Part shown: in pieces, positions 1 through 34,510 of the stretch
Position numbering within the stretch: the first letter of the stretch is position 1
How the letters are laid out: every line of letters begins with the position of its first letter
DNA from: Prorocentrum cordatum
Lineage: Eukaryota
Length of the DNA stretch: 53,652 bases
Assembly (NCBI GenBank): GCA_963575745.1
Contig: CAUYUJ010000302.1
Span: 62,001 to 115,652 of the forward strand
Direction of reading: 5' to 3'
The notes under the pieces: model-generated
Told to the model about the DNA's origin: nothing
The model's database searches: none
Seen by the model: only the letters and a program-made list of their open reading frames with translations
Made by a program: the position numbers and the translations under genes

Positions 1-5
1 TCCAG

Positions 6-1866
6 GTGTTATCTCGATTGGGGTGCGCAGTTGAATATCTTTGGAGGGTTGAGCGACGAGGATTTCCTTGGGTTCTTTTCCTTACCTTGGAGCGGCCTGG
101 GACGAAGGATCGAGTGAGCAAGATGTCCCAGCACCTGATGGACCCAATATCTTTGAGGATCATCACCGACCATCCAGACCTTCAAGGTGACCTGTGCGAT
201 GCCAAGATCTTCGCCTTTATGTTGAAGTGGCCGTGCGACAACGGACCGCAGGAGAGAGCATTCGCTCGGATCAGGAGAACAGTGGAGTCGAAATCAGCCC
301 ACCTTCCGCAGATATCCTTCTCTGACATGTCAAACGAATGGATGTTCCAACAGTCCGCTGCCAGAGCATCGCGCCAACTATTTACTGACGAGTTGGGTCA
401 GTCTACCGAACGCCGATGTCTTGAACCAGGAGACGGCAAGAGGTGGACTACGGCAGGTGGCGCATGGAGGGCATTTTGTAGGAAGAAGCTTTTGGCTAGC
501 AGCGGCGTTGCCGACTTTTCCACATGGGCGGTTGAGTACTGGAACCTGCCCCCCGACGAGAAGGCCCAGCTGAAGGAGATCGGGGCATCTGCGGCTCTCG
601 CGAATCGTTCCGGCCTGGTGACCACGAAGTCTTCATTCGGCCCGACGCCCTCCGAGGCTGGTCGGAAGGCGAAGCGCCAACAGTCGGTGACGGAGGCGAT
701 CCAGAACGTTGGGTGTACTGAGGTCGAGCTTTGTTCGCGGATTCCGCATTGTCAGCTTCCGTCGCTGGATGAGGCGCTCACGTCGTGCCGCGCAGTGATG
801 AGGGTCAAACGAGAGCGAGATCGACATTCGCTCCAGAACGACATCAAAGCCATTAACGATTTCAGAGAAGGCGTCGGCAAGAACCAAGTCGCCATGATGA
901 GTGAACGCGCGGCAGCTCACATTGATATTGGCATGAAGTTCGTTGCCGTCCCTGCGTCTGGAAAGCTACGAGTGGTAGAGCCTTCCTATCAGGTATCTGC
1001 GGATATTGGTCGTGCTACGGCGTGGGCATCTACGAGGTACAAGTCCTCTGGCATGTGCTGCGGGCTGGAGGCCTTCAACAAGTGGGCGCACGATTTCATC
1101 ACTCATGCAGCGGCGCCAACAGAGCTCGACGGGATGAGGGGCAGTGAATACCGCAAGTGCTGTGACGCCGAGATGTGCATATGCGTTGGTCGGGGCAAGG
1201 ATCTGGCGAACCGCGTCGCGACGTTCCTCGGACTGGTGAAAGGTATTTGCAGCCCAGGGACTTCAGCACGATCGATGTTGGGCGATGGCAGGCTCGTGGC
1301 CGAGCTCATCGGCCATGGCCCCGACGGCCCCGACGGGGAGGACCTGAACTTGTACAGCTGGCTGCATTTTGGTCTTATGTATTGGTCGCCGTACCGCCCG
1401 ACCTTCATGGAAGTGGTGCCCGTGGAGCCGATTGAGGATCTGCCACCGAGAGACGACAGAGTCTACATCAAGGCGACGTGCCAGTTTAAGACATTGTTCA
1501 AGGCGCTAGACCTCTTGTTGGATTGCTCTCACTGGTCTGTTCGGTGGTACGTCCTGGAGCACTCGGGCAGGCCGATCGCGAACTTTTCGCCGTTGGTTGT
1601 TCCTGTGCTGCCTCTGGACGGCTATGCGGTGGCGCCTTTCTGGCCGCGCCATGGCGCGGCCGCGCGGGCCCCTGGACCTGGCGAGCACCACCTACCCGCT
1701 GCAGACGTCGAGGAATACATCGATGGCGTTGACCTCCCCGAGGGCGAGAGCGACCACGGGGGCGGCGACGCCGTCTGCGGCGGCCACGCCCACGCCGACG
1801 TGAGCGACGGCGATGATGAGCTCGATGACTTGATCGATGAGCTCGAGGCTGCCGCCGAAGTGGGCA
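6..1866 (+). CDS. Internal exon of a putative DDE (hAT-like) transposase with an HMG-box-like segment and a Cys cluster; 5' end lies outside the window
   Basis: Starts right after an acceptor (tccag|g at 5/6) and gives ~620 codons of complex protein. CDNGPQERAFARIRR resembles the SxxERxFS motif around the third catalytic Glu of hAT-type transposases. GGAWRAFCRKK...ADFSTWAVEYWNLPPDEKAQL resembles an HMG box. CCDAEMCIC is a Cys cluster. After ~1866 the ORF runs into pyrimidine-rich intron-like sequence. The family call is inference and the 3' splice point is uncertain. Confidence 0.5.
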
Positions 1867-2707
1867 GGGGGCAGGGGGCGGTAGCATCCCCCACTTGCTT
1901 CCCTTTCCTGTATCCCCCCCGTCCTCTCGTCTCTGCCTCCCGTCACCCCCTCGTCCCCGCCCCCCCTTGCTCCTGTCCACGCCGTCCTGTCTCTTGTAGC
2001 CCCCCCATCCCCTCGATCTCAGCACCTACCGCTCTCGCCCCCCTCCATCCTTGCCCACTCCTCCTGCCTCGTCCTCGCCGTCAACGCCGATACGTGACGC
2101 TTCGCGGTTTCCCGCCAGCCAGCCCAGATACGACCCCCAGGCGAGTTGCCCTGATCAGGGAAGTGCAGTCCCAATCAGGGGGGCCATGGGGTGGGGGGGT
2201 GCAGTCCAACCGAATCTCTGGATTCACAGATCGCCGATCTTGGCACCCTCTCGGGTCTGCAGAATGCAGGCCCCGTCGAGACAGCTTCGGTCGCATCTGG
2301 GCTGAAGCGACCGATCTGGCCCCAGCGTGACCATTTGGCATTGGGTTCGTGGCCGATCGCTTGTTTCGGGCGGTCCACGGGGGACTTGGTAGGTGTTGGG
2401 CCATGTCGGAAACAGCAACGGCCCGCCCCGAGGGGGAGAGGGAATGGGGGTTGGAAGAGGTATCCAGGCCACCTCCGCCCAGAGGGACGGTAGGGTCCTC
2501 GCCCCGTGCCCGCGGGGCGAGGATCCTACCGTCGTGAGCTGTTTTGGTACTCCATGCCCGTCATGAGCTGGTTTGGCCCAGCGGGGCGGCGGCGGCCCCG
2601 TCGGAGCGACGGGGCGGGGCCGCCGCTTGCTTCCGCGGCGGCGGCGGCACTCGAGAGCCAGCTGCACGGCCCGTGGGCCTGCCAGGGTTTCGGTAAACCT
2701 CCGCTTA

Positions 2708-3616
2708 TTCCTCCTCCTCCTCCTCCTCCTCCTCCTCCTCCCCCTCCCCCTCCTCCTCCTCCTCCTCTTCCCCCCTCCTCATCCTCATCCTCATCCTCCT
2801 GGTCCAAATCCTCCAAGCAGCGGCGGCGCTCGAGAGCCAGCTGCGCGGCGCGTGGGCCCGCCAGGGCTTCGGCAACCACCCGTGGGCCCGCTGGCGCGGG
2901 CTCGGGATCGTGAACGGCCTCCCCCCTCCCTCTCTCCCACCCTCCTCCTTCCCCTCTCTCCTCCTCCTCCTCCTCCGCCTCATCATCATCATCTCTCCCC
3001 TCTCCTCATCCTCCCCTACTCCTCCTCCTCCTCCTCCTCCCCCCCCTCCCCCCTCCTCCTTCTCACCCCCCCTCCGCCTCCTCCCCCCCCTCCTCCTCCC
3101 CCTCCTCCTCCTCCTCCTCCCCCTCCTCCTCCCCCCCTCCTCCCCTCCTCCTCCTCCTCCTCCCCCTCCTCATCCTCCTCCTCCCCCACCTCCTCCTCCT
3201 CCTCCTCCTCCTCCACCTCCACCTCCTCCTCCTCTTCCTTTTCCTGCCCCTCATCCCCCTCCTCCTTCCCCCTCCTTCTCCTCCTCCTCCTCCTCCTCCT
3301 CCCCCTCCTCCTCCTCCTCCTTCATTCTCCTCCTCCTCCTCCTCTCCTCCTCCTCCTCCCCCCCCCTCCTATCTCCCCCCCCCCCCCCCTCCCCTCCCCC
3401 CTTCCTCATATTCCTGCTCCTGCTCCTCTCCTCCTCCTCCTCCTCCACCTCCTCCTCGCCCTCCCCACCATCCTCCTCCCTCCTTCCCCTCCCCCTCCCC
3501 CTCCCCCTCCCATTCACACCCCTCCCACTCACCCGTCTTCCCCATCCTCCTCCCCCCCTCCTCACCCTCCTCCTCCTTCTCCTCCTCCCCCTCCTCCTTC
3601 CCCTCCTCCTCCTCCT
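2708..3616 (+). repeat. Intronic polypyrimidine (CCT)n/C-rich tract
   Basis: Directly visible; it produces the poly-P/S/L ORF artefacts. Confidence 0.9.
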
Positions 3617-3703
3617 GCAAGCCATGCCAACTTCCTGATAGGGGGTGGGATGAGAGGAGGGGGGGGGGGGGGGGGCGGGAAGAGGGGGGCAGAGGAGCAA
3701 GGG

Positions 3704-4061
3704 GGGGCAGGATGGGGGGAGGGCACAATCAGCGGAGAGTGCATGCACCTTTCTCTCCTGAACGCTTTTGTAGGTAGAAAGCTGCCCCTCGCACCATCTC
3801 CTTATTGGTGCCGTCAAGTTTAGGAGTCCGAAACCACAGGAAGTTTAGGGGTGTGCGCTGCACGGGCGCCAGCGCGATCAGGAGCAAGAGCAGGGGCAGG
3901 ATGGGGGGAGGGCACAATCAGCGGAGAGTGCATGCACCTTTCTCTCCTGAACGCTTTTGTAGGTAGAAAGCTGCCCCTCGCACCATCTCCTTATTGGTGC
4001 CGTCAAGTTTAGGAGTCCGAAACCACAGGAAGTTTAGGGGTGTGCGCTGCACGGGCGCCAG
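3704..4061. repeat. Near-perfect tandem duplication, period 189 bp
   Basis: GGGCACAATCAGCGGAGAG...GCACGGGCGCCAG starts at both 3721 and 3910. Confidence 0.95.
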
Positions 4062-4133
4062 TGGGTGCCATTCCGATGAGTCGGTGTAGGTTTGTCCGTT
4101 TGTCAGGCCCCCAGCACATGCCAGCGCGATGTC

Positions 4134-4172
4134 AAGCAACGCCGAGTCTAAGCCTTAGACTCGGCGTTGCTT
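4134..4172. other. Perfect 39-bp palindrome (19-bp arms, 1-nt centre)
   Basis: AAGCAACGCCGAGTCTAAG-C-CTTAGACTCGGCGTTGCTT. Confidence 0.95.
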
Positions 4173-4218
4173 TACATTATGCTGGGGTGCGAGGCTATAA
4201 AACCTCACCACGCATCAC

Positions 4219-4540
4219 GGAGGAGGAGGAGGAGGAGGAGGCGCAGGAGGAGGCGCAGGAGGAGGAGGGGGAGGAGGAGGGGGGGAGGAGGGCGACGACG
4301 ACCACGAGGCGGCGGAGGCGGCGGAGGAGGAGATAGAGGAAGATGAGGAGGAGGAGGAGAAGGAGGAGGAGGAATATGATGAGGATGAGGATGAGCAGGA
4401 TGAGGAGGAGGATGAGGAGGAGGAGGAGGAGGAGGAGGAGGGGGGGGAGGGGCAGGACCAGGAGGAGCACGCACACACGCACACGCACACGCACACACAC
4501 ACACCCACAGGCACACACACACACACACGCACGCACGCAC
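4219..4540 (+). repeat. (GGA)n polypurine tract followed by (CA)n
   Basis: Directly visible. Confidence 0.9.
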
Positions 4541-4746
4541 ACCGTGGCAGCCACGCGCGTCGTGACGCGCGCCCTGCGCGTCATGGCGCCCCGTCGTAAC
4601 TAATGGACTTCTGGACTTTTGGGCGGCCCCGTCGGGGCCAACAGCGAAGTCGCCAAGGGGCATGGGCCTGGGCCTAGGGCGGGGTTGGTGATGAGCACGT
4701 GGTCTTAGATTCGGAGGGGAGGTGTCCGCCCTTCTCGCTGCGCCAG

Positions 4747-5345
4747 CTGGGGGTCCAGTGGGCGAGCCAGGCGGCGGAGGCGACGTCCAGCCAGATCCAG
4801 TTGGCGGGGGCGCAGGGGGCCCGCCTGCTGCGCCCGAGCTGCCGCATCCTGCCGCCCCCCCGCCAGGTGACGAGATTCCGCCTCCGCCACCGCCCCATCC
4901 CGTTGCAGCGAGGGCAAAGGCTATCGCTGCTGATGCTTCTATCAGGGTGGCGGGTGGCACTATAAAATATTATACTAAGTACAGGAATTTTGAGGCGATT
5001 TGCGGCAACCCCGATCACCATGTTTGCGTGGTTCGGCGCACGCCACTGGCGAAGCGCCTCCATGGCCCTGATGGGCTTCCAAGGGGCGGTCGGCCCGTAG
5101 GTTTCTTGGTGTCGTGGCTAAGCCTTGCCATGTCGACACACACCAGGGAAGAGCATAAAGATCAGCTCAGGGTTTGGAACTTTTGCAGCCCAGTGGGCCG
5201 CCGCCTGCATTTTAGGAATCAGCTTCGGGTTCACCCTGCCCACGAGATCCTCTTTTCTCGGGAGAGGGATCAGGAGGTCGCTCGCGGCGAGGGCGAGGAG
5301 CAGGCAGATCTCATAGACTTGTGGGACAAGCCTGCTGATGCATGA
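4747..5345 (+). CDS. Probable terminal exon of the transposase-like gene; Cys/His-containing C-terminal domain
   Basis: Acceptor cgccag| at 4746. A G/P linker is followed by complex sequence IKYYTKYRNFEAICGNPDHHVC...GRPVGFLVSWL...HTREEH and a TGA stop. Joining it to the upstream exon is inference; the phases are not resolved. Confidence 0.5.
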
Positions 5346-5609
5346 GTGTGCGTGACTGTGCAATGCGCATTGCATTGATGTTTGTTCCAGGGGGCTGGGA
5401 CAGTGAAAATAGAGCGTTCGGTCGGCGGGGGCGCCCGAGATGTGTGCGAGCAGCACTAGCGCCAGGACTGCCACGCACCCCTTTCCTCCAGCACTGCGCG
5501 GGCCGCGTGGTAACCGCGCGAGTTACTTGCTCGCGCGCGCGCGCGCGCGGGCGTACACATGCAACCTTTCTTAGTGCGTTCTTCTCGTGAGCTTCGCGGC
5601 TGGGCGTAA

Positions 5610-5880
5610 AGTAACTTTAGTTGCACTTAGAAGTGTCTTGCAGCTAACGGCACGTGATGCCCGAAACCCACTTTAGTTGCACTTAAGAGCGCGCGCACGC
5701 ACACATGCCACCGTCACTTTAGTTGCAACTAAACGCGGTTAAGTTACAACTAAACGCGTTTAGTTGTACTTACACTGTGTTTGACATACCGTGCGCAGTG
5801 TCGTGTAAGTGCGGTTTAGTTGTAGTTACGTCGCATTTGTCATGTAGCTCTGAGGCAACGCGAATGTGCAATTAAAGTGT
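5610..5880. repeat. Intergenic cluster of TTTAGTTGCA/CAACTAAA motifs in both orientations
   Basis: Several copies, including the perfect palindrome TTTAGTTGCAACTAAA (~5718-5733); an AT-richer island. Confidence 0.8.
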
Positions 5881-6611
5881 CTGTGTGTTCTATAGTATGG
5901 CGCTGTGAAAAGTATGGCATGGGGTAGGTGCGCGCGCGCGCTGAAGCTCTGGCACGCGCGCCTAGCGCGCGGTGCTGTTCGCGGGGTGACGTTGGGGAGG
6001 CGCCGCCTGCACTTGAGGTTCTGTTGCTTCTGGCCCGTGTCGAGGCAAGGCGCAGCTGGGTGCAGAGGGGTGCGCCCGTGCGGCTTGAGAGTCCGAGAGC
6101 GGCCGTGGGGGCCGCTGGCTTAAGGGAGGGAGGGGGGGGCGGGGGGGGGGGGGTGGGGGGAGATGGGGGGAGGGGCCAGGAGGGCGGGGGTGGGAATTTG
6201 GGGCACGAAATGGAGGGGGGGCGTCAACAGAAGGGTGGCGGGGATTGCGTTGACAACGAAGGTCGAGGACGGGGGGGGGGGCGGATGAGTAGGGGGTGCG
6301 AGGAGGAGGAGGCGGAGGAGTAGGAGGGGGCGGGTGCGAGTCCAGCTTCGCTTGCGGGCGACGGCCACTTTTCGTTTGGACTGCCGCTGGCGTGGTCATC
6401 TGCCCCCCTCACGCCCCGACTTGCCCGACCCATCCCGCCGTTCCCGAGCCTCGGGGCCGAGCGCCAAGAGGGCCTTGCCTTGCGGTTTATAGACGTTCTG
6501 GGAGGGGGAGGGGAGAGGTAGGGATGAAGGGAAAGGGAGGTTGGAGACGGGGTAAAGGTCACTCCAGAGATGGGGGGCGGAGTCCAGCCCCTGGTCAGGG
6601 ACGCCAACACA

Positions 6612-6836
6612 TGCAGCAACAGCGTTGCTGATACTGACGCAGAAAAGGGCACCATAACAACAGCAGCGTTACTGACGCAAAAGAGGCCCCCCAGTACAGC
6701 AGCAGCGTTGCTGACGCAAAAAAGGACCCCAATACAACAGCAGCGTTACTGACGTAAAAGAGAACCCCAGTCCAACAACAGCGCTACTGACGCAACACAT
6801 GAGCCCAGTACAACAGCAGCGCTGCTGGCGCAACAA
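6612..6836 (+). repeat. Minisatellite of ~43-bp units (5-6 copies), core CAACAGCAGCGTTACTGACGCAA
   Basis: The core recurs every ~42-44 bp; the array is bracketed by a 14-bp inverted repeat and a 12-bp direct repeat. Confidence 0.85.
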
Positions 6837-7527
6837 AAACAAGGATTGACCCAGGCGCAGGGGCTGGACTCAGAAGGTCACTCCATCTATAGACGACCCT
6901 CAGACTGGTTGCCCTGATCAGGGATGTGTAGGATCACTCACTGTAACACGAGGAAGGGTTGTAGTCAAATGGAGTGGTACCGAATCGCATTGACTAAGTG
7001 ACAGACCATTCGCCTCTTGCCCCAGCGAGCTGGTCCTGCTGACACCTCTCGTGTCATGTCGCATCTCATGCAAGAAACCTAGCGGCACGTTCTCACATAT
7101 TCGAGTCTCGTGGCAACCCTTTTGCCGCGGATGACCCCGTTGAGCCCCCCTGTTTTGGGCCGATTGGGCAACGTCGAAATCCAATCGACCGATGTGGCCC
7201 AAGTGGCTCCACGGTCTATTGAGTTCGTGACCAACTGGTCGCCTCGGACCCACACGATATTGATCTTGTTGGCCCCGCTCGGCCCGCGCCGAAAAAAAAC
7301 ATTGGTCGACGTTGCCCGAACGCTCCTCCACCGACACCCCTCCCCCGCCCCCTTGTTTCGCCATCCACCAGGCTGGCGCAGCCAGTGCCGCCCCCCTCCC
7401 CCCCCCCCCGCTCGCCCTTGCACCCGCCGCTGCTCTGACTCGAGACATTTTGGCGTCTTGTCTTGGGTGAGTGTCATCCATTCATCACGTCACCGCCCCA
7501 GCTGAGAGCTGGGCCCCAGTTCCCACG

Positions 7528-7959
7528 ATGGCCAAGACAATCGAAGAGATGTTGAGGGAGTCAAACGCCGCCCTGGCCCAGCAAGTCAGGGTCCTCACGG
7601 CAGAGGGCAAAAAGAAGGATAAGACGATCGTCAGCATGAGCGAGGCTATCAACAGCGTCGCCCTGAAGTTCCAGATCAAGGCAGCCGATACCCCCGAGGC
7701 AAAGGAGGCGGCGAGGCAGGAGTGGAAAACAGCAGCTCGGCTCAGGTCGAGGAAGCGCCTCAAGGTCAGTCACTCGAATCAGGGGCCCGCCGCTCCCGTG
7801 CCCCCGCTGCGGGCGGATGGGGACCCCGTGCCCGCCGACCCCCCGCCGCCTCCAGCTGAGGAGCCGCCTCAGTCAGCGGAGGGGCCGTCTGCAGCGGAGG
7901 AGCCGTCAGCAGCCAGCGGCTCGGGCGGGCCGCCAGGTGACCCCGATTGTGATCCATGA
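7528..7959 (+). CDS. Small intronless hypothetical protein (143 aa): helical N-terminus, basic RLRSRKRLK, P/E-rich tail
   Basis: ATG at 7528 follows a cccag site; GC3-rich codons; TGA stop. Confidence 0.55.
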   Translation: MAKTIEEMLRESNAALAQQVRVLTAEGKKKDKTIVSMSEAINSVALKFQIKAADTPEAKEAARQEWKTAARLRSRKRLKVSHSNQGPAAPVPPLRADGDPVPADPPPPPAEEPPQSAEGPSAAEEPSAASGSGGPPGDPDCDP

Positions 7960-9170: not shown

Positions 9171-12100
9171 ATGCCAGAGGTCGGCAAGAAAGGGCAGAAA
9201 CGTCAGCAGCCCGCGAGGCCCCGCACCCCCTTGCAGAAGGCGATGGCCGCCACCACGTCACCTGGCACGGGTTCGGCTCCAGTTGGCGCCCCGTCTACAT
9301 CCAAGCGTCAGCGTCGCACGAAACGCCAGATACAGACATCGGCCGAGCAGGCGAAGGCTGCGGGGTTGAGCACGGCCGACGCCACGAGCTGCTACCGCTG
9401 CGGGGAGCTTCCGGCACCAGAGGGGCAAACGCCGTCCCCACCTGGAGAAACGTCTTCATCCTCCCCCTCCTGTCCCCTCCCTCTCCCCCCTCTCCTCCTC
9501 CTCCTCTTCCTCCTGGGTTTGCTCTGCATGGGGGTCAAGATGAGTAGAGTGCAGTTTACATTCAAGTCCCGATCTTCCAAGCCAGCGGCTTAAACGTCAG
9601 AACGACGTTTTGGTAGGGATCAGCACGCGGCCGAGTGCTGATCCCTACCAAAATGGCTTTGGGGGACTCTTGTAAAGGGGGCCGTGGGGGACCGTAGGGG
9701 GCCGTAGGAGGCCATCTTCCCCCTGCTCCTCCTTCCTTTCCTCTTCCTCCTCCCCCTCCTCCTCCGCCCCTGCCTTGCGTTTGCCTTGCTTGCTAGCCCG
9801 CTGCCTTCAGGCTGCGGTGGAGTGGGCCCTCTACAGGGCGATGGGGTCGGCCAACGACACTCCCGTCGCGTGCGGCGAGGCCTGCAAGGTGTGCTACAAG
9901 GCCGTGGTCGCCGCCAACCCAGGTGCCACGTTCCGCGCGACGGTCGACCAGGCCCAGGCGGACGAGGAGCTCGAGGCCAAGCTGGAGCAGGCTACGAACA
10001 CCCAGAAGTCGGGCAAGCAAGCGTTCCAGCCGTCCGACGTGACTGAGAATGTTTGCGTTCGCCTGATCGTCAAGCGCCCCGTCTCCGTCGCGTCCTCCTC
10101 CACCGTGCGGGCCGACCTGCAGACGGAGCGCATCCCGAAGAAGATCAGCGACCAGACCGCGGTCGTCACCATGCCGCACGAGTCTGGGAAGGGTGAGGAG
10201 ACGTCGTTCCTCTTCAAGGGCGAGGGTGACGTGCCGCCGCGGACGGCCGAGCTCCAGGTCATCCGCGAGTGGACCATGAATGGGAAGGTCTTGACAGCAA
10301 GCAACCAGCTCTTCGCCGCTCAGGGCGGAGATGCATTCGCTCGCTGCGCGACGGCTGGCTTCGAGGAGCACGGACTTCAGGCGCTCCTCAGCAAGATCTC
10401 CTCCGACACGCTGCCGACCTACACGTCGTTCTTGGCAACGTCGGCTGACGCGGCCCCGAGGGCGGGGCATCGCCTTGCTGAAGCCGCGCCGACTTCGCCC
10501 ATTGGCTCGCGGATCCTTGGGGTGGCAGCCTTCAGCCCTGGGTCTGCTGCAAGGCGCCGCATGAGGGCGAAGACTTCGACGTCCGATTCCAGGGAGCCTT
10601 TCGACAGCCCCACCGCGGCCAGCATCATCAACGACGGGGCGTCTACTTTGGGCGGCGACTTAGACGACGGCGCCATGGGGAACGACCTCCTGGCCAAGTG
10701 GAAGGCGCGGCTCCCGATGCACGACGTCATGGCCGACACCGTGGACGGGAGGACTATATCTGCCTTGCTCAAGAAGATTGCTCGGTTGAACGCGACCGCT
10801 GAGGGGCAGGCCGACGGGGCCACCTTGACGATTTTCGCCGATGAGGTTTCTACTGCCAAGAAGCTGCAGCCTGCCAACATGGTCGGGTACGACTGGGGGA
10901 AAATCACGGAGTACGTGGACTGCATGGTCCGTGCGAACGCCTCCTTCCCGAAGGCCACGAAGGCCGCCTTGGTGACTAGCCGGTTGATGAGCTTCGACCA
11001 GCAGAACCAGTGGAAGCAATTCGTTCGCATCATGTCGCCGATTCTGACAGACGATGCAGAGTTTGACCCACTGAGCCCCACGTTAGCAACTGCAGTCGCC
11101 GACGAGGACGAGCGCGCGGAGACCTTCCTCGAGACTGTCGTGAAGAAGGCCATCTGCGGCGCCATCTCCAAGGGGGCCGCGCAGGCGTCCTTCGTGCGCA
11201 ACGTCGTGCATGCCTTGGGCGACGAGTTTATGGACGTGGATCTGCTTGATGTCGGCGGGAACCTCGCCGCCATCATCGCTGACATGCTCGACCTGCGCAA
11301 CGTTTGGGCCGTTGCCTTCGGCGACGGGCCCTGCTTCGACATCTCCCTGGACGCCTACGCCGCCTTCGACCGCCTCCACAAGACGATGGTGTCTTCAGGC
11401 ACGTCCGCGCTGCACCACGTCGGCGCAACTATTAGGAGGACGCCATACTATTGCACACCGTTTCAGAAGTTCTTCAGCAAGATCCCCTACCTGAAGGAGA
11501 ACTTGTCCACCTTCCGCGAGGCCATCGCCGCGCTCCAGGATGCGAAGGTTCTGAGGGCATTCGCATGTACCCTCTCACCGTCCTCGCTCCCTCTCGTCGT
11601 CGCCCCCTCCCGTTGTCGCCCCGTCGTCGCCAGCCAGTCGTCGCACTCGCATCCCCCCATCAGCCCGTCCCGAGAGTGTGCCCCCGCGCACCCCCGTCAT
11701 GATTTTAATGGTTGGCCCCGTCGGGGCCTAGAAAGTACACAGCGCCAAGAGGCCTCGGGGGACTTTAGTTTCTGGCCCCGACGTGTCCCCCTTGCTCCGA
11801 GGTCGACGGCGGCTTGCAGGGCGTCGACATCGACGCGCTGCGCGTCTATTGCGGCAAGTGTATCGCGTGGGCGTCTGGCTTCCCAGAAGGCTACTGCGAC
11901 GCGTTCGATGGCGACCTGAAGGATGCTGTATGCAGGGTTTGCATGTCCCTGCGTGCCGACGCCGACCCGCAGCTTCTGGAGGCAAGTCGGGTTCAGACGA
12001 TCTCGAAGTTGGCGCAGGAGGCGTCCCTGGTCTTCGCGTTGGACACGGCGGTCAGCGAGTCCACCAGCAGCGTGGCCGCCTTCCTTGGCCAGTTGGAGGC

Positions 12101-13160
12101 GCTGAACAGCAAGACCAAGTTGGTGGAGCTTTGCAAGGCCTTGTGGGATGATGTCAGCCTGGAGAGCATTCAGACGGGGATTCCGTTCAAGGATAACTGC
12201 ACTGACGCCATCAAGGCGCTTCTCAAGATGCTCCACAATTACCGCGCTGGGCCGATCAAGAAGGCGGACCCCGCTGCATTTCCTGTCATCGCTGCGGCAA
12301 TGGACGGTCTCGTGGTTGAGATTGCCACAGCGGGCTTTGGCAAAGAGTACGATGAAGATGCGTTGCAGTGCCTCGACAAGTTGTACGCGGCCACTGGGCA
12401 CAAGGACGACGCGATGGAGAAGACCATCGCCATCTTCAAGTTGGGCGCCGCCCTGGCTTCCACGATGAAGGAGGCCCATGCCTTCATGAACACGCCTGAC
12501 TACGACCAGAACCCCGATTGGCCAGATGTAGTTCGCGGTGTCGGCTTGAAGGCGCAGAAGATGTCGGACGTCATGCCCAAGGATGGTGGAGCGTTTGACG
12601 GGCTGCCAGACACGTTCTCCGAGGTCATCCGCGACATGATCCAAGGTGCCAATACCATGGTCAGCAACAGTGGTCGTGACCAGCTGGCACGGTCTGAAGC
12701 CGAGCTCACCAAGGCAATGGAGACGGTCGGCAAGATGCAGTACGCAACGTTGAACGGGAAGCCGTGGTTTGAGGGCTTGCCTGCAAGCCCGACCATGGCG
12801 AAGATCACCTCCCATATGAAGACTGCGACCGACGGCTTCAGCTTCGTGGCCTTCAAGGAGAGAATCCAGTCGTTGGAGGACGCTGTCAATAAGTACACGA
12901 CCGCGGCTGGCTTCATGTCTGAGAAGGTGAACGGTGACGACGTCGAGAAGGCCAACGCGATTGTGTTCAGAGCGCGCACCTCGTTGACTGAGTGCCTGAT
13001 CTGCATGCACGCGGAGTCGCATGCGAACAACGTGGACAAGATGAGGGCAGCGATCGTGGCGGAGCTCAAGGTGTTCCGTGCCAGCAAGGGTGCCGCGAAG
13101 GATCTTAACCCAGCGCTGCAGTCTGCCTTGCGCTGCGTGATTGCTGGCAGGCAGAGTTAG
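9171..13160 (+). CDS. 3-exon ~1115-aa hypothetical protein: N-terminal CxxC...CxxC finger and a long helical body
   Basis: Exons ~9171-9422, 9811-11547 and 11802-13160, all phase 0. Acceptors are cttcag| and tccgag|. CYRC in exon 1 pairs with CKVC in exon 2. Strong GC3 bias. Confidence 0.75.
9608..9653. other. Intronic hairpin, 19-bp perfect stem, 8-nt loop
   Basis: TTTTGGTAGGGATCAGCAC-gcggccga-GTGCTGATCCCTACCAAAA. Confidence 0.95.
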
Positions 13161-13995
13161 GCATCTCCTGCCGCCCGTGCGGGGCGCGGTGGGGGCTGTT
13201 GCCTGGAGGATGAGGATGAGCACGGGGGGGCATCGGCTCGTGGTGGATCGGCGGGAGGGGGGGAGAATACGGTGCAGGGAAACGCGGGAGGGGGGAATGA
13301 GGGAGCAGGGGGAGGGAAGGGAGGGAGACGGAGGATGGGTGGGCGGACGGGCATGCGAACGAAGGGGGAGTCACGCTTCGATGGGGCTTCCAGGCTACAG
13401 TTTGCCGACATGTGTGTCTGCACCCCTGCTCTATAGGTCAGGGGTCGCTTGCAGCCGACTTCTCCCTGGCCAGCTCGGCTCGTGCTTGCCGCCCCCGCCT
13501 CCAGTCGCTCCTGCATGGAGCGCGCCTCCCTCTTGGGTCCCGTCCTCCTCTCCTGGGTCGTCCTGGCCAGCAGCGCCGCGGGTGGCCATGCTCGATGGCG
13601 GAGCTTCTTTTTCAGCGATTTGTTTCGCAACTGGCTGGGGGCCGCAGCCGCGCACCATGGGGTGATTCCTCGAAACGAGGTTTGGTGTTGGTAGGTCGAG
13701 GGCTCGGCCCGCCTCCGCGACCTCCTCGCCCTCCCCCGCGAGGAGCTCGCGGGGGTAGTGACGAGGCCGCGGTGGCAGACGGATGAGGGGAGCGATTCGC
13801 AACAATGGGGGGAGGCGGGCGGATCCGAGGATTGAGAGTATGATGACGAGAAAGGCGGTTCACTTGATTCGATCGCGGCCCCCAGCGTTGCTCGCGAGGT
13901 CGGCGGCTCGATTGCACGCCGATCGTGCGTGCCCATTCGGCGTCAGCAGGTGAGAATACCTTGCGATATGTTCTTCCTCCGCCCCCCTCTCCTCT

Positions 13996-14040
<45 letters not shown>

Positions 14041-14043
14041 TCG

Positions 14044-14086
<43 letters not shown>

Positions 14087-14350
14087 TGCCGCCGCCGCCG
14101 CGGCCGTTGCTGCCGCCGTCGTCGCCGCCGCCGCCGTCGCCGTCTCCCTTTCTTCCCCCTCTTCCCCCCTCCCCCTCCTCGCTCCCCCTCCACCCTCCCT
14201 CCTTTCCCCCCTCCTCCCTTTTTTTCTGCCCCCCCCCCCTCCCGCCCGCCCTCCCACCGTCCCTTCCCTTCCTCCCTCTCCCCCCACCCCTCCCCTCTCT
14301 CCTTCCCCCCCCCCGCCCCCCCCACCTCCCCCCTACTTCCTTACTCCCCC
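13996..14350 (+). repeat. (GTC)n(GCC)n microsatellite plus C/T tract
   Basis: Directly visible. Confidence 0.9.
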
Positions 14351-14569
14351 CCTTCGGGAACAGCGCAGCGTAGCAATGGGCAGGGTAGCTTGCTTATCTC
14401 CTGCGTTATCTCGCGATCGCACGTGAATTCCCAACTTACTTTGACGTTTCCTTAACGCTACCTAGGCAAGTGTCCTTAAAGTCACTATATATTCAGTTAA
14501 AACCTACTTCTATTTGTTTGATTGCAGTGCCGATGTAGGAGATCACGAAATCGTTAACAGTAGATATTC

Positions 14570-14960: not shown

Positions 14961-16429
14961 TGGAGCCAAGGCTACGCCCCCAAAGCGTTGGAGAAGTCAC
15001 GCGGCGCCCCAAGAGAAGCGCTGAAGAGCGCCCGAGGACTCCGCGAATTAAGGGGCTCACGTCCCTTACACAACATGTGCAAAATTCAGTTAGTTCGAAG
15101 GTGTCCGAGGACAGTCCACCCTGTACCTCGACGCGCGTGGGTGGACGCACACGTGCACACATGTATGCATGTAAACACGCGTGCACACATAACGCGCACA
15201 TGTGCACGCGAGGGCTTACGCGCCCCCCCTTGCGCCCGCGCGCACCAAGGCATATTTTCCAACAGTGTGCGTGCCTAATTCGTATCGGCACTCATGCGTG
15301 CATGCGCGCGTACGCGCGCACATGGACAGATGCGCGCGCGCGCGAGCCGTCTTCCGCATCCTCGTTTTCTGCAGTGAAGGCCCCTTCGAGACGAAGCGCC
15401 CGCTTGCGATGCAGGCCCTCCCCTGTTCCCCCCATCGGCGCGCGGCCCCAGGGCGTGCGAGGCAGAATCCGCCTGTCACGGGGCGGCGGGGCCGGCCAGG
15501 TGCGACCAGGTGGGAGATCTTCAGGGTCCGACCTTTCCTCGACCCCATCCCCCCGATCGCGCCCACCGATGCCCCACCTCCCCTCTCTTCCTCCACTTGC
15601 TTGCCGCCCTCCTCCTCCTTCTGCCCCCCCCCCTGCTGCTAGTCCCCCGCCTCCTTTTTTTGTTTGTTTGCGCGCTGTGCGCCGCAGACGTCGCGGAGTT
15701 GCGTCGCGCGTCGGCCGCTCGTGACAATGCAAGGCGACTCTGGTCGCCCATGGCAGGGCTACAAACGGTCGCAACGCGCGCACATATGCCAGCAAGCCAG
15801 GGGCTGCCCTGGCGATGAAGCTGCCCGGCCAAGTCGCGGCGCAAACCGCCCGGGCCCGCGTCCGCGCGCGGGCGTGTATTGGATCGCTTGCCTGATCGCA
15901 ATGCGCTTAGCCACGCTGCGCGCGCGCGGACAAATAAACTCGGGCAGTGCGGTCAGCGCGGAAGCGCTCCGCGCACGCCTCGCACATTTGCGCAATCTTC
16001 ACGAGCGGCTGTCCGCCAACACATTCGCCGAATCTGTATTTGCAGTGGGGTGTTTGTGGAAGTTGATGGAAACAGATCCTGACATTCTGCTTTTCCTGTC
16101 GCCCCTTTCGGGGCCCTCTGCGGCCGCTGCCCCCGTGGGGCGCCCAAGAGCCCCCCCACACCCGAAGCGCCCTCACAGAGGCATCGTTGCTCAAGGGCCC
16201 CCGGGGGGCACCGAGGGGGGGGGAAGGGCGGGGGCATGACTTGCATTTGCAGCGAGCTTCCGTGCGTCGGCGCCGCGAGCCACGAGGGTGGCGCAGACGC
16301 TGTTTGGGAACGGGGCGGGGGTTTCGTGTCGGTCGGGGGGCTTTGGTCTGGGGCATGCGGCATGCGCTGTGCGTGCTCGCAGTGGGCCGCGTTGCGTTTC
16401 CTATGCTTGGCGCCGCCCCAGGTGGCATC

Positions 16430-31415
<14,986 letters not shown>

Positions 31416-32431
31416 GGGCCCATGGCCCATGGCCAGCATGCAGAGCATGCAGCAGCAGAGCGGCAGAGCAGAGCGCAGAGCAGCAACAGCAGCAGCAGCA
31501 ACGGCTCAGCAGCAAACCAGCAGCAACGGCTCCCCGGCTCACTCACTCGCTCGCTCTCTTCGCGGAGTTATCTCCCTCGCTCTCCTCTCCTCCTCCTCTG
31601 CCTCCGCAGTCCTCAGCCCCGCCTGTCCCTGTTGCTCGTTTCTTCTCCGATTCGGGGTCGGAGACTCGCGCGCCCCGTGGCGGCGGGAACGCCTCGAGGA
31701 GCGGCGCGGCGCCATCTCGCGAGAGAATGGCTGCGCGCGCGAAGGAAGAGGGGGGGGAGGTGGGGGGCAGAAGGAAGAGGAGAGGGGAGGCATGGAAAGA
31801 GGATGGGGTGCAGGAAGATGAAGAGGAGAGGCAGGGGGGCCTGGGATTGGGGAGGCAAAGGAAAACGACGGGGATGGGGGGGCAGGGGCAGGGGGGGAGG
31901 CGAGGCAGGGCAGGGGAAGGACTGGCGGCTTGAGCCGAAGCCGCAGCCGAGAACCGACGTCCTCGTCCTCCTTGTGGTCCGCGACCCGGGGTCGAGACGG
32001 AGCTGGGTGAGGAATAGATTTGGAGGGGGGGGGATATTTGGAGGTGGATGGGGATGCCTTATCCTCTTCACCATTATTGTCAGATCCGTCTAGTCATCCA
32101 TGTCTCTACATATTGCGCCCCCCTGCATTCTCATCCTCCCAGTCCCACTTCCCACTCGCATCAACCCCTGCACTTCTGTGCACCTCCATTCTCCTCGCGT
32201 CCTCTTCCCCATTTCCCCCTCGCCCGTCGCCCGCCCCCCCCGCCGCCCGCCTGGCAATTTCCTGCCGCTTTCCTCCTCCTCTCTTCCTCTCTCCTCCCTC
32301 CCTCTCCCTCCGTCCCCCCTCATCCCTCTGGGGCCCTCCTCCTCTCCTCCCCCTCCCTCTCTGGGCCCCTCCCCCTCCCGCCCGTGGCACCGTAAAGTGG
32401 GGCAAGGTTGGTGAGATGTGTACCCACCCAC

Positions 32432-33670
32432 CCAACACCCAGTGCGCAACGGCATCCGTTTTTAACACAACACCCAATACTCAACAGCCTCTGTCTCCAA
32501 CACAAGCTGGCACTCAAGAGCCTCCGTCTCCGGCGCAACACCCTGTATTCAACGGCATTTCGCTGCAAGAGAGAGATCCCCTAGGAGTTCTATTCCAATC
32601 CCGATCCGCCCGCCCGCCGTCCGCCGCCCACCCGCCCGCCGCTCGCCCGCCGCCCGCTCGCCGCCCGCCTCCCGCCGCCCGTTCGCCGCGCTTCCGCGTT
32701 CAACGCGACACCCAGTACTCCACAGCGTCCGTCTCCAACACGAAACCCAGTGCTCAACAGCCTCCGCCCCAAACACAAAGCCCAGCACTCAACGGCATCC
32801 GTCCCCAACACAACACCCACTGCTCAACCGCCTCCGTCTTCAACGCAAAGCAGTACTCAACAGCCTCCGTCTCCAACACAGCACCCAGTATTCAACGACA
32901 TCCCGCTGCAAGAGAGAATTGAATTCTGAGGTCTTTGCAAGTCCCGGTCCGCCCGCCCGCCGCCCGCCCGCCCGCCTGCCCGCCGCCCGCCCGCGGCCCG
33001 CCTCTGCCGTCCGCTGCCCGCCGTCCGCCCGCCGTGCCCCCGCGTTCAACACAGCGCCTGGTAGTACTCGATAGCCTCCGTTGCCAACGCGACGCCCTGT
33101 ACTCAACAGCCTGCGTCTCCAGCGCAACACCCAGTGCTCAGCAGCATCCCGCTGCAAGAGAGGGGCGGGGCGATCAAAATCCCGATCCGCCCGCCCGCCC
33201 GCCGCCCGCCCGCCCGCCGCTTTCCCGCCGCCCGCCCCCCGGCCGCCCGCCCTCCGCGCTTCCGCGTTCAACCCAACACGCAGTACGCAACGGCATCCGT
33301 TGCGAACACAACACCCAATACTCAACAGCCTCTGTCTCCAACACAAGCTGGCACTCAAGAGCCTCCGTTTCCAGCACAACAACCCGTATTCAACGGCATT
33401 TCGCCGCAAGAGAGAATTTCCTGAGGAATTTGATTACAATCCCGATCCGCCCGCCCGCCGTCCGCCGCCCGCCCGCCCGCCCACCCGCCCGCCGCCCGCC
33501 TCCCGCCGCCCGTTCGCCGCGCTCCCGCGTTCAACGCGACACCCAGTACTCCGCAGCGTCCGTCTCCAACACGGAACCCAGTGCTCAACAGCCCCCGCCC
33601 CAAACACAAAGCTCAGCACTCTACAGCCTCCGTCACCAACGCAACGTACAGTGTTCAAGAGCATCTCTCT
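32432..33670 (+). repeat. Higher-order minisatellite: ~35-bp monomers in groups separated by a CGCTGCAAGAGAG linker and (CCGC)n blocks
   Basis: Monomer is approximately AACACCCAGTACTCAACAGCCTCCGTCTCCAACAC. There are five blocks, and ~33270-33640 re-copies ~32430-32800. Confidence 0.9.
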
Positions 33671-33759
33671 GCACGAGGTAACCTTCGGAGTTTGTATTGA
33701 AATGCCTATCCGCCGCCCGCCGCCCGCCCGCCCGTCGCCCGCCCGCCGCCCAGCTTTTT

Positions 33760-34510
33760 GGGAGGAAGCTTTCGTCAAATCTTCCGGAGGAAGGTCTTTG
33801 GCAGGTTTTAGGAGGAATCGCCCAAAACCTTCAAACAACCTTTCGGAGGAGGGTTTTTGGAAGGTTTCCTGCGAAAACTTGTCGAACATCTTCCTGAGGA
33901 ATGTTCCAGGAAGATTTTTAGGAGGAGTCCCGCTTGAAGTCTTCACGAGGAAAGTTACAGGACAGTTTTAAAGGAGGAAGCCCTTGTGAAACCTTCCCGA
34001 GGAAGGTTTCTTGAAGCTTTCTAGGGGGGATCCTCCAACAACCTTCCAACAACCTTCCGGAGGAAGGTTTTCTGACGGTTTCTCGGAGGAAACCAGCCTG
34101 AAAACTTTGCGAGGAAAGTTGTTGGAAGGCTTTAGGGGGAATCCAACAAACCATTGGAGATCTTCCTGAGGAAGGTTTTCGGGAGGTTTTAGGAGGAATC
34201 CTCAAACAACCGTTCGAAAGCCTTCCCGAGGAAGGTTTCGGGAGGTTTTTAGAGAAGACCCTTCTGAAACCTTCCTGAGGAAAGTTCTTGGAAGATTGTA
34301 GGAGGAATTCCTGATGGAGTTTTTAGGAAGGCTTCTGAAGAGGAATCGGCCCAAAAAACTTCAGGAAAGCTTCGTGTGAAGAGGGATCCTCCAACATTTT
34401 TTAATACATACCCCCCACAAGCCTACATATATAAATATTTGTAGGAAATTTAGAAGGTTTTAGAAGGAAGAATTCCCCACATCTTTTTTGAGGAAGGTTT
34501 CAGAAGTTTT
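33760..34510. repeat. Array of imperfect palindromes AAACCTTCC-nnn-GGAAGGTTT; related tracts at ~36910-37160 and ~38550-38720
   Basis: For example GAAACCTTCCCGAGGAAGGTTTC (~33988-34010); many further variants. Confidence 0.8.

What the first reader, a model, noticed from the sequence alone, without database searches (positions are those of the whole stretch)
6..34510. Candidate giant multi-gene DNA transposon (transposase plus three orphan genes) ending in structured repeat arrays
Seen: a transposase-like gene followed by co-oriented genes of 143, ~1115 and ~1350 aa with no recognisable housekeeping function, each separated by structured repeats, and closed by ~2 kb of higher-order and palindromic arrays (32.4-34.5 kb). 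The arrays at 6.6 kb and 32.4 kb share a CCCAGTA(CT)CAACAGC core. Inference: this is a >34-kb cargo-carrying element with intron-rich accessory genes, possibly an undescribed dinoflagellate superfamily. The left end is outside the window, so TIRs and TSDs cannot be tested here.
Basis: inference. Interest (0 to 1): 0.7.

Follow-up and report, generated by a model that had tools for sequence, protein, structure and literature searches.

The report
Transposase gene fragment, not giant transposon
The stretch looks like an ordinary same-direction run of dinoflagellate genes whose first gene is the back half of a large, uncatalogued cut-and-paste transposase, and nothing found here supports a single 34-kb jumping element.

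Summary
The window is Prorocentrum-like dinoflagellate nuclear DNA. The first ORF is real. It belongs to a large family with no Pfam match (715 clusters at 50% identity) of proteins about 1,400-1,690 aa long. An AlphaFold model of the front half of a full-length relative has an RNase H-type DDE core with a helical insertion domain, and its best structural match is the hAT transposase Hermes (Z 13.9). The window holds only the back half: the helix with the catalytic E, an HMG-box-like module, a Cys/His-rich beta domain and, after a proposed 2.8-kb repeat-filled intron, a C-terminal Cys/His domain (3-1880 and 4722-5345). The two catalytic D residues would lie upstream of the window.

The "giant element" reading is not supported. 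All credible coding segments across the full 53.6 kb, including a polyubiquitin gene beyond 34.5 kb, lie on the + strand, as is usual in dinoflagellates. Gene C and the largest exon of gene D have no detectable homologue anywhere, although gene A has close Prorocentrum cordatum paralogues. The six metagenomic loci of relatives show only the transposase. No inverted repeat links the left part to 32-35 kb, and the "closing" array type recurs at 36.9 kb. The shared repeat core is marginal (9 of 200 shuffles reach it). TIRs and TSDs remain untestable.

The parts
3..1880 (+). Gene A, exon seen in the window. It is the back half of a DDE transposase-family protein and corresponds to aa 826-1438 of the 1,642-aa relative P0004 and aa 726-1278 of the P. 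cordatum protein P0155. It holds the helix with the catalytic E (QERAFARIRR, ORF aa about 83-92), an HMG-box-like module (aa about 145-209), a coiled coil, a beta-rich domain with a C..C.C...H cluster, and an acidic tail.
   Evidence: The exon end at 1880 (GT donor at 1881) is inferred and from where family conservation stops.
1881..4721 (+). Proposed phase-0 GT...AG|G intron of gene A (2,841 nt). It is filled with (CCT)n at 2709-3616, a 189-nt x2 repeat at 3693-4061, (GGA)n at 4219-4467 and (CA)n, and it holds a 45-nt dispersed repeat at about 2125-2170.
   Evidence: The splice sites are inferred; no RNA data were available.
4722..5345 (+). Gene A, last exon: the family's C-terminal Cys/His domain (GGTIKYYTKYRNFEAICGNPDHHVCVVRRT...GRPVGFLVSWL), followed by the stop codon.
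   Evidence: ORF; E 4e-10 to P0004 aa 1460-1637; tblastn hits at 4938-5264 from 3 of the 4 query proteins; P0155 gave none there.
6632..6838 (.). 38-nt x5.4 minisatellite between genes A and B.
7528..7959 (+). Gene B candidate: a 143-aa ORF with a coiled-coil-like sequence and no known family.
   Evidence: It was not searched in the large protein databases.
9841..13160 (+). Gene C candidate (about 1,030-1,115 aa): two long coding ORFs (9808-11562 and 11796-13142) separated by an intron or frame break of about 230 nt. It is an orphan.
   Evidence: the highest coding scores in the window (300 and 244), though these two ORFs were also part of the score's training set; no homologue among proteins of 410-1308 aa; no Pfam family; only weak Atlas look-alikes (0.81).
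13965..14353 (.). Low-complexity block, (TCG)n / (CGC)n / C-rich, between genes C and D.
16364..31089 (+). Gene D candidate (or candidates): 13 + strand exon candidates, the largest at 28289-29722. The introns between them hold (GA)n at 24447-24710 and the inverted (TC)n/(GA)n pair at 26982-27854. Whether this is one gene or two is not resolved.
32430..33751 (.). Higher-order satellite: CCGCCCG runs plus 35-nt ACCCAGTACTCAACAGCC... units, with a period of about 263 nt.
33760..34500 (.). Array of units of about 52 nt rich in short palindromes (CTTCC-N-GAGGAAGG). A related stretch recurs at 36928-37052, outside the proposed element.
38876..40474 (+). Polyubiquitin array (7 x 228 nt), outside the finding. 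It shows that the co-oriented gene run continues past 34.5 kb.

Best explanation
The 34.5-kb stretch is not one mobile element. It is the start of an ordinary co-oriented dinoflagellate gene run.

Its first gene (3-1880 plus 4722-5345) is the 3' half of a gene for a large DDE cut-and-paste transposase. The family has no Pfam model and is widespread in dinoflagellates.

Full-length members (about 1,400-1,690 aa) carry, in order:
- an RNase H-type core, with D on strand 1, D after strand 4 and a CxxH motif after strand 5;
- an all-helical insertion domain of about 440 aa;
- the catalytic E on the following helix (the Hermes/hAT layout);
- an HMG-box-like module, a Cys/His-rich beta domain, an acidic linker and a C-terminal Cys/His domain.

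I infer that such a protein excises and reinserts a compact element carrying essentially only this gene, by hAT-like DDE chemistry. The window copy is cut by the window edge about 80 aa before the catalytic E.

Genes B, C and D are unrelated lineage-specific ('dark') genes with the long, repeat-filled introns typical of Prorocentrum. The satellite arrays are intergenic or intronic repeats, not transposon termini.

Shown: family membership, the fold of the family's front half, conservation of the catalytic and Cys/His residues, the absence of homologues for gene C and for gene D's largest exon, and + strand coding throughout.

Inferred: the transposition chemistry, the intron borders, the compact size of the element, and whether this copy can still move.
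For: Family membership:
- ORF1 aa 1-570 finds 715 representative clusters at E<=1e-3, 254 at <=1e-10 and 21 at <=1e-30. Many are 1,500-1,690 aa, with the ORF1-like part at about aa 800-1400.
- ORF1 aa 3-590 aligns with P0004 aa 826-1438 (E 1e-52), and the ORF at 4695-5342 aligns with aa 1460-1637 (E 4e-10).

Fold of the family:
- The model of P0004 aa about 201-949, built with 35 relatives, has pLDDT 84.4 and pTM 0.83 and the strand/helix order of an RNase H core.
- In Foldseek the top 10 rows are all Hermes (best E 4.6e-3, prob 0.99), although no row reaches E<=1e-3.
- In VIA-align, Hermes 8edg_A scores Z 13.9 with 365 residues aligned at rmsd 4.3. Next come retroviral integrase cores at about Z 9, P element 8.6, ISCth4 7.8, Tn5 6.8 and Mos1 6.7.

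Catalytic residues:
- D306, D432, C462, H465 and E907 are invariant in 20 full-length members.
- They are also invariant when the P. cordatum protein P0155 is included (D230, D353, C378, H381, E809). P0155 is 57% identical to the window ORF.

Signs of a mobile or decaying family:
- P0002 and P0155 fall in one 90%-identity cluster but sit on different P. cordatum contigs.
- The metagenomic copy L002 has its frame broken once, and L003 is in pieces.

Compact relatives:
- Ten relatives looked up sit on contigs of 3.2-8.3 kb that are nearly filled by the ORF. One further relative sits on a 32-kb contig.
- The 6 metagenomic loci show no match to any exon of genes B-D.

Ordinary gene run:
- Every high-complexity coding segment in the window is on +, or is the weaker antisense shadow of a + segment; there is one near-tie at 20.4 kb.
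- Polyubiquitin at 38.9-40.5 kb is on +.
- Published figures for P. cordatum (PMC10666404, passages): mean gene 24.5 kb, 11.7 exons, mean intron 4.7 kb.
- Dinoflagellate genes form co-oriented clusters (PMC11453091, passages).

No sign of shared cargo:
- Gene C found 0 homologues among proteins of 410-1308 aa.
- Gene D's 481-aa exon found 0 among proteins of 843-2405 aa.

No terminal structure:
- A DUST-filtered self-BLAST gave 10 non-tandem pairs, all direct. None links 1-7 kb with 32-35 kb, and 34162-34285 recurs at 36928-37052.
Against: - The left end of gene A and of any element lies outside the window, so TIRs and TSDs could not be looked for.
- The source organism's own proteins seem to be absent from the databases: ORF1's best hit is 57%, not about 100%. 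Paralogues of genes B-D within the source genome are therefore not excluded.
- The homologue searches are word-based and limited by length. Gene B and the smaller exons of gene D were never searched beyond Pfam.
- The RNase H fold was modelled on an environmental relative that is only about 26-28% identical to ORF1, not on the window copy.
- No Foldseek row reached E<=1e-3, and the HMG-box resemblance is weak (Z 5.1-6.5, below the tool's own caution line of 8).
- One relative (P0072) sits on a 32-kb contig that I could not read.
- L002 carries a tandem array right after its stop codon, which loosely parallels the array 1.3 kb after gene A's stop.
Confidence: 0.72

Rival explanations
1. One reading: a single cargo-carrying DNA transposon of more than 34 kb, made of the transposase plus three accessory genes, with the 32.4-34.5 kb arrays as its subterminal or terminal repeats.
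For: - Gene A does belong to a DDE transposase family.
- Genes B-D are orphans with no housekeeping function.
- The arrays at 6.6 kb and 32.4-33.6 kb share an 8-mer plus a 6-mer, always in the same orientation.
- A relative (L002) has a tandem array just after its stop codon.
- One relative lies on a 32-kb contig that I could not read.
Against: - Co-orientation is the default in dinoflagellates and continues to the end of the window (PMC11453091).
- Gene C and gene D's largest exon have no homologue, although gene A has three P. cordatum relatives on different contigs.
- The six relatives' loci show the transposase only.
- The similarity of the repeat units is marginal: 9 of 200 shuffles reach it. 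The copies are direct, not inverted.
- The terminal array type recurs at 36.9 kb, and further arrays follow up to 42 kb.
- No significant inverted repeat was found.
Confidence: 0.05
2. Gene A is a host-adopted (domesticated) descendant of the transposase family, kept for a cellular role such as DNA binding or rearrangement, and no longer part of any mobile element. The rest of the region is an ordinary gene run, as in the best explanation.
For: - The 833 codons seen are open. All family-invariant residues that fall in the window part are kept: the E and RR of the catalytic helix, C..C.C...H, and the C-terminal Cys/His residues.
- The gene has a long intron with plausible GT...AG|G borders, and it lies in the same orientation as its neighbours.
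- A transcript of a family member exists in a Biecheleria cincta transcriptome assembly.
Against: - The family is very diverse (715 clusters at 50% identity).
- It has near-identical copies on different P. cordatum contigs and broken copies, which is how a mobile family behaves.
- Transposase genes with introns are common in eukaryotic transposons (general knowledge).
Confidence: 0.2
3. Some of the 'genes' B-D are not genes at all but chance open frames in 62% G+C DNA, so the multi-gene picture is partly an artefact.
For: - The window has 181 ORFs of >=120 aa and 219 stop-to-stop frames of >=130 aa, most of them overlapping shadows.
- No RNA run was available.
- No homologue exists for gene C or for gene D's largest exon.
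- The polyubiquitin array shows local frame errors, so the assembly may carry indels.
Against: - The gene C frames score far above all others in codon-usage log-odds (300 and 244, against <=65 for their antisense shadows) and have high sequence complexity, but they were also part of the training set.
- The gene D exon candidates were not in the training set. All 13 of them lie on the + strand.
Confidence: 0.1

Closest known systems
hAT superfamily transposases (Hermes of Musca domestica; PDB 8EDG, 4D1Q, 2BW3)
   Same: - An RNase H-type DDE core interrupted after strand 5 by a large all-helical insertion domain, with the catalytic E on the helix that follows.
- A CxxH motif just after the second D.
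- The best structural match by a clear margin: Z 13.9 with 365 residues aligned, and the top 10 Foldseek rows.
   Different: - No sequence-level relation: 0 of 26 family proteins match any Pfam family at E<=1e-3, and among 20 members at E<=10 no family is matched by more than one member. So there is no Dimer_Tnp_hAT and no BED finger.
- The PDB sequence-profile search gave nothing.
- The proteins are 2-3 times longer than typical hAT transposases (typical length recalled), with about 700 extra residues after the catalytic E (HMG-like module, Cys/His beta domain, C-terminal Cys/His domain).
- TIRs and the 8-bp TSD were not observable.
Other insertion-domain DDE transposases: P element (6P5A), IS256-type ISCth4 (6XG8), RAG1/Transib (6OEM)
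   Same: The same general layout of an RNase H core plus an inserted domain. They appear as weaker structural matches: P element Z 8.6 with 350 aligned at rmsd 8.5, ISCth4 Z 7.8, and RAG1 as a weak Foldseek row.
   Different: They score much lower than Hermes. No THAP, GTP-binding or RAG1-type Pfam domains were detected.
Giant cargo-carrying eukaryotic transposons (Starships of fungi, Teratorn of medaka, Mavericks/Polintons; recalled, not tested by any search)
   Different: As I recall them, those elements are defined by repeated occurrence with conserved gene content and defined termini, and they use a tyrosine recombinase, piggyBac or integrase plus polymerase genes. Here no repeated gene order, no termini and no such genes were found.
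Ordinary dinoflagellate unidirectional gene clusters with 'dark' lineage-specific genes and repeat-rich long introns (PMC11453091 and PMC10666404, passages read)
   Same: - + strand coding across all 53.6 kb.
- Window G+C about 0.55-0.67, against published means of 59.7% for the genome and 65.9% for coding sequence.
- A multi-exon gene spanning about 15 kb.
- Micro- and minisatellites in introns and between genes.
   Different: Nothing that stands out, apart from the transposase-family gene at the left edge.

Membership tests
DDE (RNase H-fold) cut-and-paste transposases | RNase H-like beta-sheet core carrying two acidic residues, plus a third acidic residue on a following helix | tested here: met
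   Met for the family. The model of P0004 aa about 201-949 (pLDDT 84.4) places D306 on strand 1, D432 after strand 4 and E907 on a helix. All three are invariant in 20 full-length members and in the P. cordatum protein P0155. The fold matches Hermes, integrases, P element, Tn5 and Mos1. The window itself holds only the helix with the E.
hAT superfamily | All-helical insertion domain between strand 5 and the catalytic E, with a CxxH motif after the second D (motif definition recalled) | tested here: met
   Helices fill model residues about 264-700, between strand 5 and E708. C462 and H465 are invariant. Hermes aligns over 365 residues spanning model 53-748.
hAT superfamily | C-terminal hAT dimerisation domain (Pfam Dimer_Tnp_hAT) and N-terminal BED zinc finger, recognisable by sequence | tested here: not met
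   0 of 26 family proteins match any Pfam family at E<=1e-3. Among 20 members at E<=10, no family is matched by more than one member, and none of those is a hAT family. ORF1 has 0 families at E<=1.
hAT superfamily | Short terminal inverted repeats and an 8-bp target-site duplication (recalled definition) | tested here: inconclusive
   The left end lies outside the window. In L002 the only end-to-end inverted pair is 20 nt at 80% (341-360 / 6822-6841), which is unconvincing, and the contig may not hold the element's ends.
   Gene A has P. cordatum relatives on three contigs. Gene C (410-1308 aa) and gene D's 481-aa exon (843-2405 aa) have no homologue in the 5.8-billion-protein collection. No exon of genes B-D matches the 6 relatives' loci. 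Limits: the source genome itself was not available, and gene B was not searched.
   No genome is held for this window. Within the window no significant non-tandem inverted repeat exists.
Dinoflagellate unidirectional gene cluster | Neighbouring genes share one coding strand over tens of kb | tested here: met
   All high-complexity coding segments from 3 to 53072 are on +, or are weaker antisense shadows of a + segment. Ubiquitin Pfam hits are on +. Family matches are on + only.
HMG-box DNA-binding domain (module within gene A) | Three-helix L-shaped HMG fold, recognisable by sequence profile | tested here: inconclusive
   17 of the first 17 VIA-align rows for the ORF1 model are HMG boxes, on aa about 145-209, but Z is only 5.1-6.5. 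There is no Pfam HMG_box hit.

The most novel reading that the evidence does not exclude
The gene A family is an undescribed superfamily (or a very deep branch of hAT) of eukaryotic DDE transposons, specific to or greatly expanded in dinoflagellates. It would be defined by a transposase of about 1,600 aa with a Hermes-like core, an HMG-box-like module and two Cys/His modules after the catalytic E. If still active it could contribute to the restless, repeat-rich genomes of bloom-forming dinoflagellates. The bolder reading, that this copy mobilises the 34 kb downstream, is not excluded, but I put it at about 0.05.
Probability: 0.35. Interest if true: 0.6.

Novelty: new variant of a known kind. 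Interest (0 to 1): 0.4.

Why it matters
As proposed (a new giant cargo transposon) the finding would have been striking, but the evidence points to an ordinary dinoflagellate gene run.

What remains of value is the transposase family. It is large, transcribed in at least one dinoflagellate, and has no Pfam match. Only structure prediction shows it to be a hAT-like DDE transposase.

[quoted passage not shown] A family like this one could pass such checks unrecognised; that is my inference and was not tested. At least three members are deposited as 'unnamed protein product', so such copies may inflate counts of 'dark' genes.

Defining the family and its termini would improve repeat annotation of multi-gigabase dinoflagellate genomes. 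It would also give a candidate autonomous partner for some of their many non-autonomous DNA elements.

Tried and rejected
- Whole-genome search: no genome is held for this window.
- RNA evidence: no RNA holder was listed, so expression and splice sites could not be checked.
- Reads laid on 1-20000. Only contigs of DNA runs were available.
  - X1 (organism A) carries short contigs with 0 or few differences over parts of genes B-D (for example 7910-8453, 10039-10536 and 16520-17191 with 0 differences), so it holds this locus.
  - Summed word depth was 2-7 over ORF1, gene C and the start of gene D, and high only at low-complexity bins, at about 2111-2175 and at 14.7-16.0 kb. The tool states that this is not a copy number, so I draw no copy-number conclusion.
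- DinoSL relic in the window: 0 matches with <=3 mismatches.
- PDB sequence-profile search with the family alignment: one chance-level row (E 0.18).
- ESM Atlas: for P0004 the top cluster is an unnamed hypothetical protein (0.90). For gene C there were only 0.81-level look-alikes with a dynein-tail Pfam family, too weak to use.
- Foldseek with the ORF1 model: nothing better than E 0.1.
- Viral contigs: 50 pattern matches, none a relative, so no sign of a giant-virus origin.
- Nucleotide comparison of the 6 relatives' loci with the window: 5 short matches (36-49 nt), 3 of them to the (AT)n run at 46.9 kb and none to the window's satellite arrays. The array after L002's stop codon is therefore not the window's array family.
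- The first attempt at search for related loci with the 20-member alignment failed for lack of a conserved stretch.
- Earlier findings of this scan: none for this genome or sequence. The word search returned only hAT, P-element and Transib-type transposon cases from other genomes, and I did not use them.
- Literature. Four full-text searches were run and passages of three papers were read. Three searches looked for a described transposase of this kind; one search was for genome context. None of the listed titles, abstract starts or passages read described it. Repbase and Dfam could not be searched, so 'undescribed' is not established.

Full report
**What the window is.**
- In 2-kb steps the DNA is 55-67% G+C, apart from a 46% island at 44-46 kb. 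It is full of micro- and minisatellites (132 TRF rows).
- No genome is held for the window.
- The first ORF (3-2327, 775 aa, open at its 5' end) finds two proteins in the 5.8-billion-protein collection. Both are 'unnamed protein product [Prorocentrum cordatum]': P0002 (57% identity, 97% of the query covered, E 2.5e-201) and P0003 (50% identity).
- The composition fits the published P. cordatum genome: 59.7% G+C overall, 65.9% in coding sequence, mean gene 24.5 kb, 11.7 exons, mean intron 4.7 kb, and GT/GC/GA splice donors (PMC10666404, passages found).
- ORF1's best hit is 57% rather than about 100%, so the source organism's own proteins are apparently not in the databases. That limits every paralogue test below.

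**Gene A is a real member of a large transposase family with no Pfam match.**
- An exhaustive HMMER search with ORF1 aa 1-570 found 715 representative clusters (50% identity level) at E<=1e-3, 254 at <=1e-10 and 21 at <=1e-30. Many are 1,500-1,690 aa, with the ORF1-like part at about aa 800-1400.
- None of the 26 family proteins scanned has a Pfam family at E<=1e-3. At E<=10, no family is matched by more than one of 20 members. ORF1 itself has none at E<=1.
- A PDB sequence-profile search gave nothing, and the ESM Atlas gave only unnamed clusters.
- Twenty full-length members share invariant D306 (in YDETPL), D432 (TTDxxxANxxAE), C462 and H465 (LCxVH), E907 (IESxHAxIRR), C1227/C1233/C1235/H1299 and a C-terminal Cys/His block.
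- I folded P0004 aa about 201-949 with 35 relatives as the alignment. The model has pLDDT 84.4 and pTM 0.83.
- In that model three strands, a helix, a strand ending at the second D, a helix and a strand followed by CxxH form an RNase H-type core. About 440 residues of helices follow, and the invariant E sits on the next helix.
- In Foldseek the first ten PDB rows are all the hAT transposase Hermes (best E 4.6e-3, probability 0.99; no row reaches E<=1e-3). ISCth4, RAG1 and Mos1 appear lower down.
- An independent full scan with VIA-align put Hermes 8edg_A first: Z 13.9, 365 residues aligned, rmsd 4.3. It stands well above the retroviral integrase cores (about Z 9), the P element transposase (8.6), ISCth4 (7.8), Tn5 (6.8) and Mos1 (6.7).
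- The family is therefore a DDE transposase with hAT-like architecture. By sequence it is not a recognisable hAT member: there is no hAT dimerisation domain and no BED finger.

**What part of that protein the window holds.**
- ORF1 aa 3-590 aligns with P0004 aa 826-1438 (E 1e-52).
- ORF1 also aligns with aa 726-1278 of P0155, a 1,420-aa P. cordatum protein, at 57% identity. P0155 keeps all the catalytic residues (D230, D353, C378, H381, E809).
- The window therefore starts about 80 aa before the catalytic E (QERAFARIRR). The RNase H sheet with the two D residues would lie upstream. tblastn with four full-length proteins finds nothing else in the window.
- Conservation stops near nt 1880. The family's C-terminal Cys/His domain is encoded at 4722-5345 (E 4e-10; tblastn hits at 4938-5264).
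- A phase-0 intron from GT at 1881 to AG|G at 4720-4722 joins the two parts (inferred, no RNA data).
- A model of ORF1 aa 1-570 (pLDDT 83.1, pTM 0.56) shows helices, then a beta-rich domain.
- Its only consistent structural look-alikes are HMG boxes, on aa about 145-209: 17 of the first 17 rows, but only Z 5.1-6.5. Foldseek found nothing useful. The HMG reading is a lead, not a result.

**Mobile family or host gene?**
- P0002 and P0155 fall in one 90%-identity cluster but lie on different P. cordatum contigs.
- A family member is a Trinity transcript of the dinoflagellate Biecheleria cincta.
- Ten relatives looked up sit on contigs of 3.2-8.3 kb nearly filled by the ORF. One sits on a 32-kb contig that I could not read.
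- A metagenome scan returned six loci.
  - L002 (7 kb) holds the ORF broken once (1172-4684 and 4691-6076), no convincing terminal inverted repeat, and an 85/128-nt tandem array starting about 150 nt after the stop codon.
  - L003 is fragmented and carries a complete dinoflagellate spliced-leader sequence inside the match. That places these relatives in dinoflagellate nuclear DNA.
- No relative was found in the viral contig collection.
- High diversity, near-identical dispersed copies and decayed copies all fit a mobile family. Domestication of this particular copy cannot be excluded.

**The rest of the 34.5 kb.**
- I built a codon-usage log-odds score trained on ORF1 and the two gene C frames. 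It picks out a 143-aa ORF (7528-7959), the two gene C frames (9808-11562 and 11796-13142, scores 300 and 244) and 13 exon candidates between 16364 and 31089. All are on the + strand.
- The same score picks out + strand segments beyond the proposed end: polyubiquitin at 38.9-40.5 kb (Pfam ubiquitin, E down to 4.7e-69) and further + segments at 46.3, 48.7-50.2 and 51.5-53.1 kb.
- Every high-complexity minus-strand segment overlaps a stronger + segment, with one near-tie at 20.4 kb.
- Co-orientation is therefore a property of the whole window and of dinoflagellate genomes in general (PMC11453091, passages). It is not evidence for an element.
- None of 219 stop-to-stop frames of >=130 aa, and none of 22 exon translations, has a Pfam family above its cut-off, except ubiquitin.
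- Gene C (aa 45-630 of the 747-aa frame) has no homologue among proteins of 410-1308 aa.
- Gene D's 481-aa exon has none among proteins of 843-2405 aa.
- The exons of genes B-D match none of the six relatives' loci. They match none of the 158 fetched proteins beyond one E 0.003 row.

**The repeats.**
- The arrays exist as described.
- The quoted 16-mer occurs six times with <=1 mismatch, all between 32473 and 33592 and none at 6.6 kb.
- The 6.6-kb units carry CCCAGTAC directly followed by AACAGC.
- The best rotated alignment of the 38-nt and 35-nt consensus units is reached by 9 of 200 shuffles. That is a marginal relationship.
- A DUST-filtered self-comparison found 10 non-tandem repeat pairs, all direct, and none joins the left 7 kb to 32-35 kb. 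One pair shows that the 33.8-34.5 kb unit type recurs at 36928-37052.
- Further arrays follow at 34.6-35.0, 35.5-36.2, 37.4-37.8 and 41.0-42.0 kb. The arrays therefore do not close anything.

**Verdict.**
- The inference of a 34-kb multi-gene transposon is not supported.
- What is really there is the back half of a hAT-like DDE transposase gene with no Pfam family, at the edge of an ordinary co-oriented Prorocentrum gene run with orphan genes and satellites.
- Termini, target-site duplications, the front half of the gene and copy number in the source genome remain untested, because the flanking sequence and genome were not available.

Noticed in passing
window 38876-40474 (flanks 37377-37839 and 41008-42007): The polyubiquitin array has seven 228-nt units at about 96% identity, but units 2, 3, 4 and 6 carry local frame shifts, and unit 2 has an in-frame stop. 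It is therefore either a decaying array or the assembly has small indel errors. Related 101/102-nt tandem arrays in direct orientation (67-78% identity) flank it on both sides.
   Followed up: partly
window 2146-2161 and 6909-6924 (similarity over about 45 nt): A dispersed repeat of about 45 nt is built around the perfect 12-nt palindrome CCCTGATCAGGG. One copy lies in gene A's proposed intron and one just after the 38-nt array. In the organism's DNA contigs, 36-42 contigs overlap the first copy with variant letters, so it is multi-copy in the genome. It could be a MITE or introner-like element.
   Followed up: partly
window 26982-27484 and 27634-27854; also 24447-24710: A long (TC)n run lies about 150 nt from a (GA)n run, giving inverted arms of up to 219 nt at 85-97% complementarity inside a proposed intron of gene D. 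A third (GA)n run lies 2.3 kb upstream.
   Followed up: no
L003 2005-2026: A complete dinoflagellate spliced-leader sequence sits inside a metagenomic relative of gene A. It is bracketed by an 11-nt direct repeat (AGAAGTATATT) and is not followed by a GT donor. It looks like a tiny retro-insertion relic, not a spliced-leader gene.
   Followed up: no
L002 6227-6984: An 85/128-nt tandem array begins about 150 nt after the stop codon of a full-length relative and runs to the contig end. It has no nucleotide similarity to the window's arrays.
   Followed up: partly
window 28289-29722 (aa about 255-360 of the exon): The exon has a tryptophan-rich internal duplication (…WHTEWSTAVTESFWTQKLSVDLSSLTWDVKEGIVTENWEWTKNG… / …WLTRWTTVSKNGKYDVDLVSLSWDRKTHFVTEKWEWAQIG…) with no Pfam family.
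   Followed up: no
window 44248-45266: A 1-kb (TATG)n/(TATGTA)n island at 46% G+C lies in otherwise 55-67% G+C DNA.
   Followed up: no
window 14558-16147: The organism's DNA contigs include a 574-nt piece only 88% alike (69 differences) at 15572-16147, and a 1,935-nt piece with 14 gaps at 14558-15645. This suggests a second, diverged copy of the segment between genes C and D elsewhere in the genome.
   Followed up: no
protein P0155 (CAK0849263.1): UniRef names this full-length family member 'RNA-directed RNA polymerase', yet it has no Pfam family at E<=0.01. The name looks like an automatic mis-annotation of a DDE transposase.
   Followed up: partly
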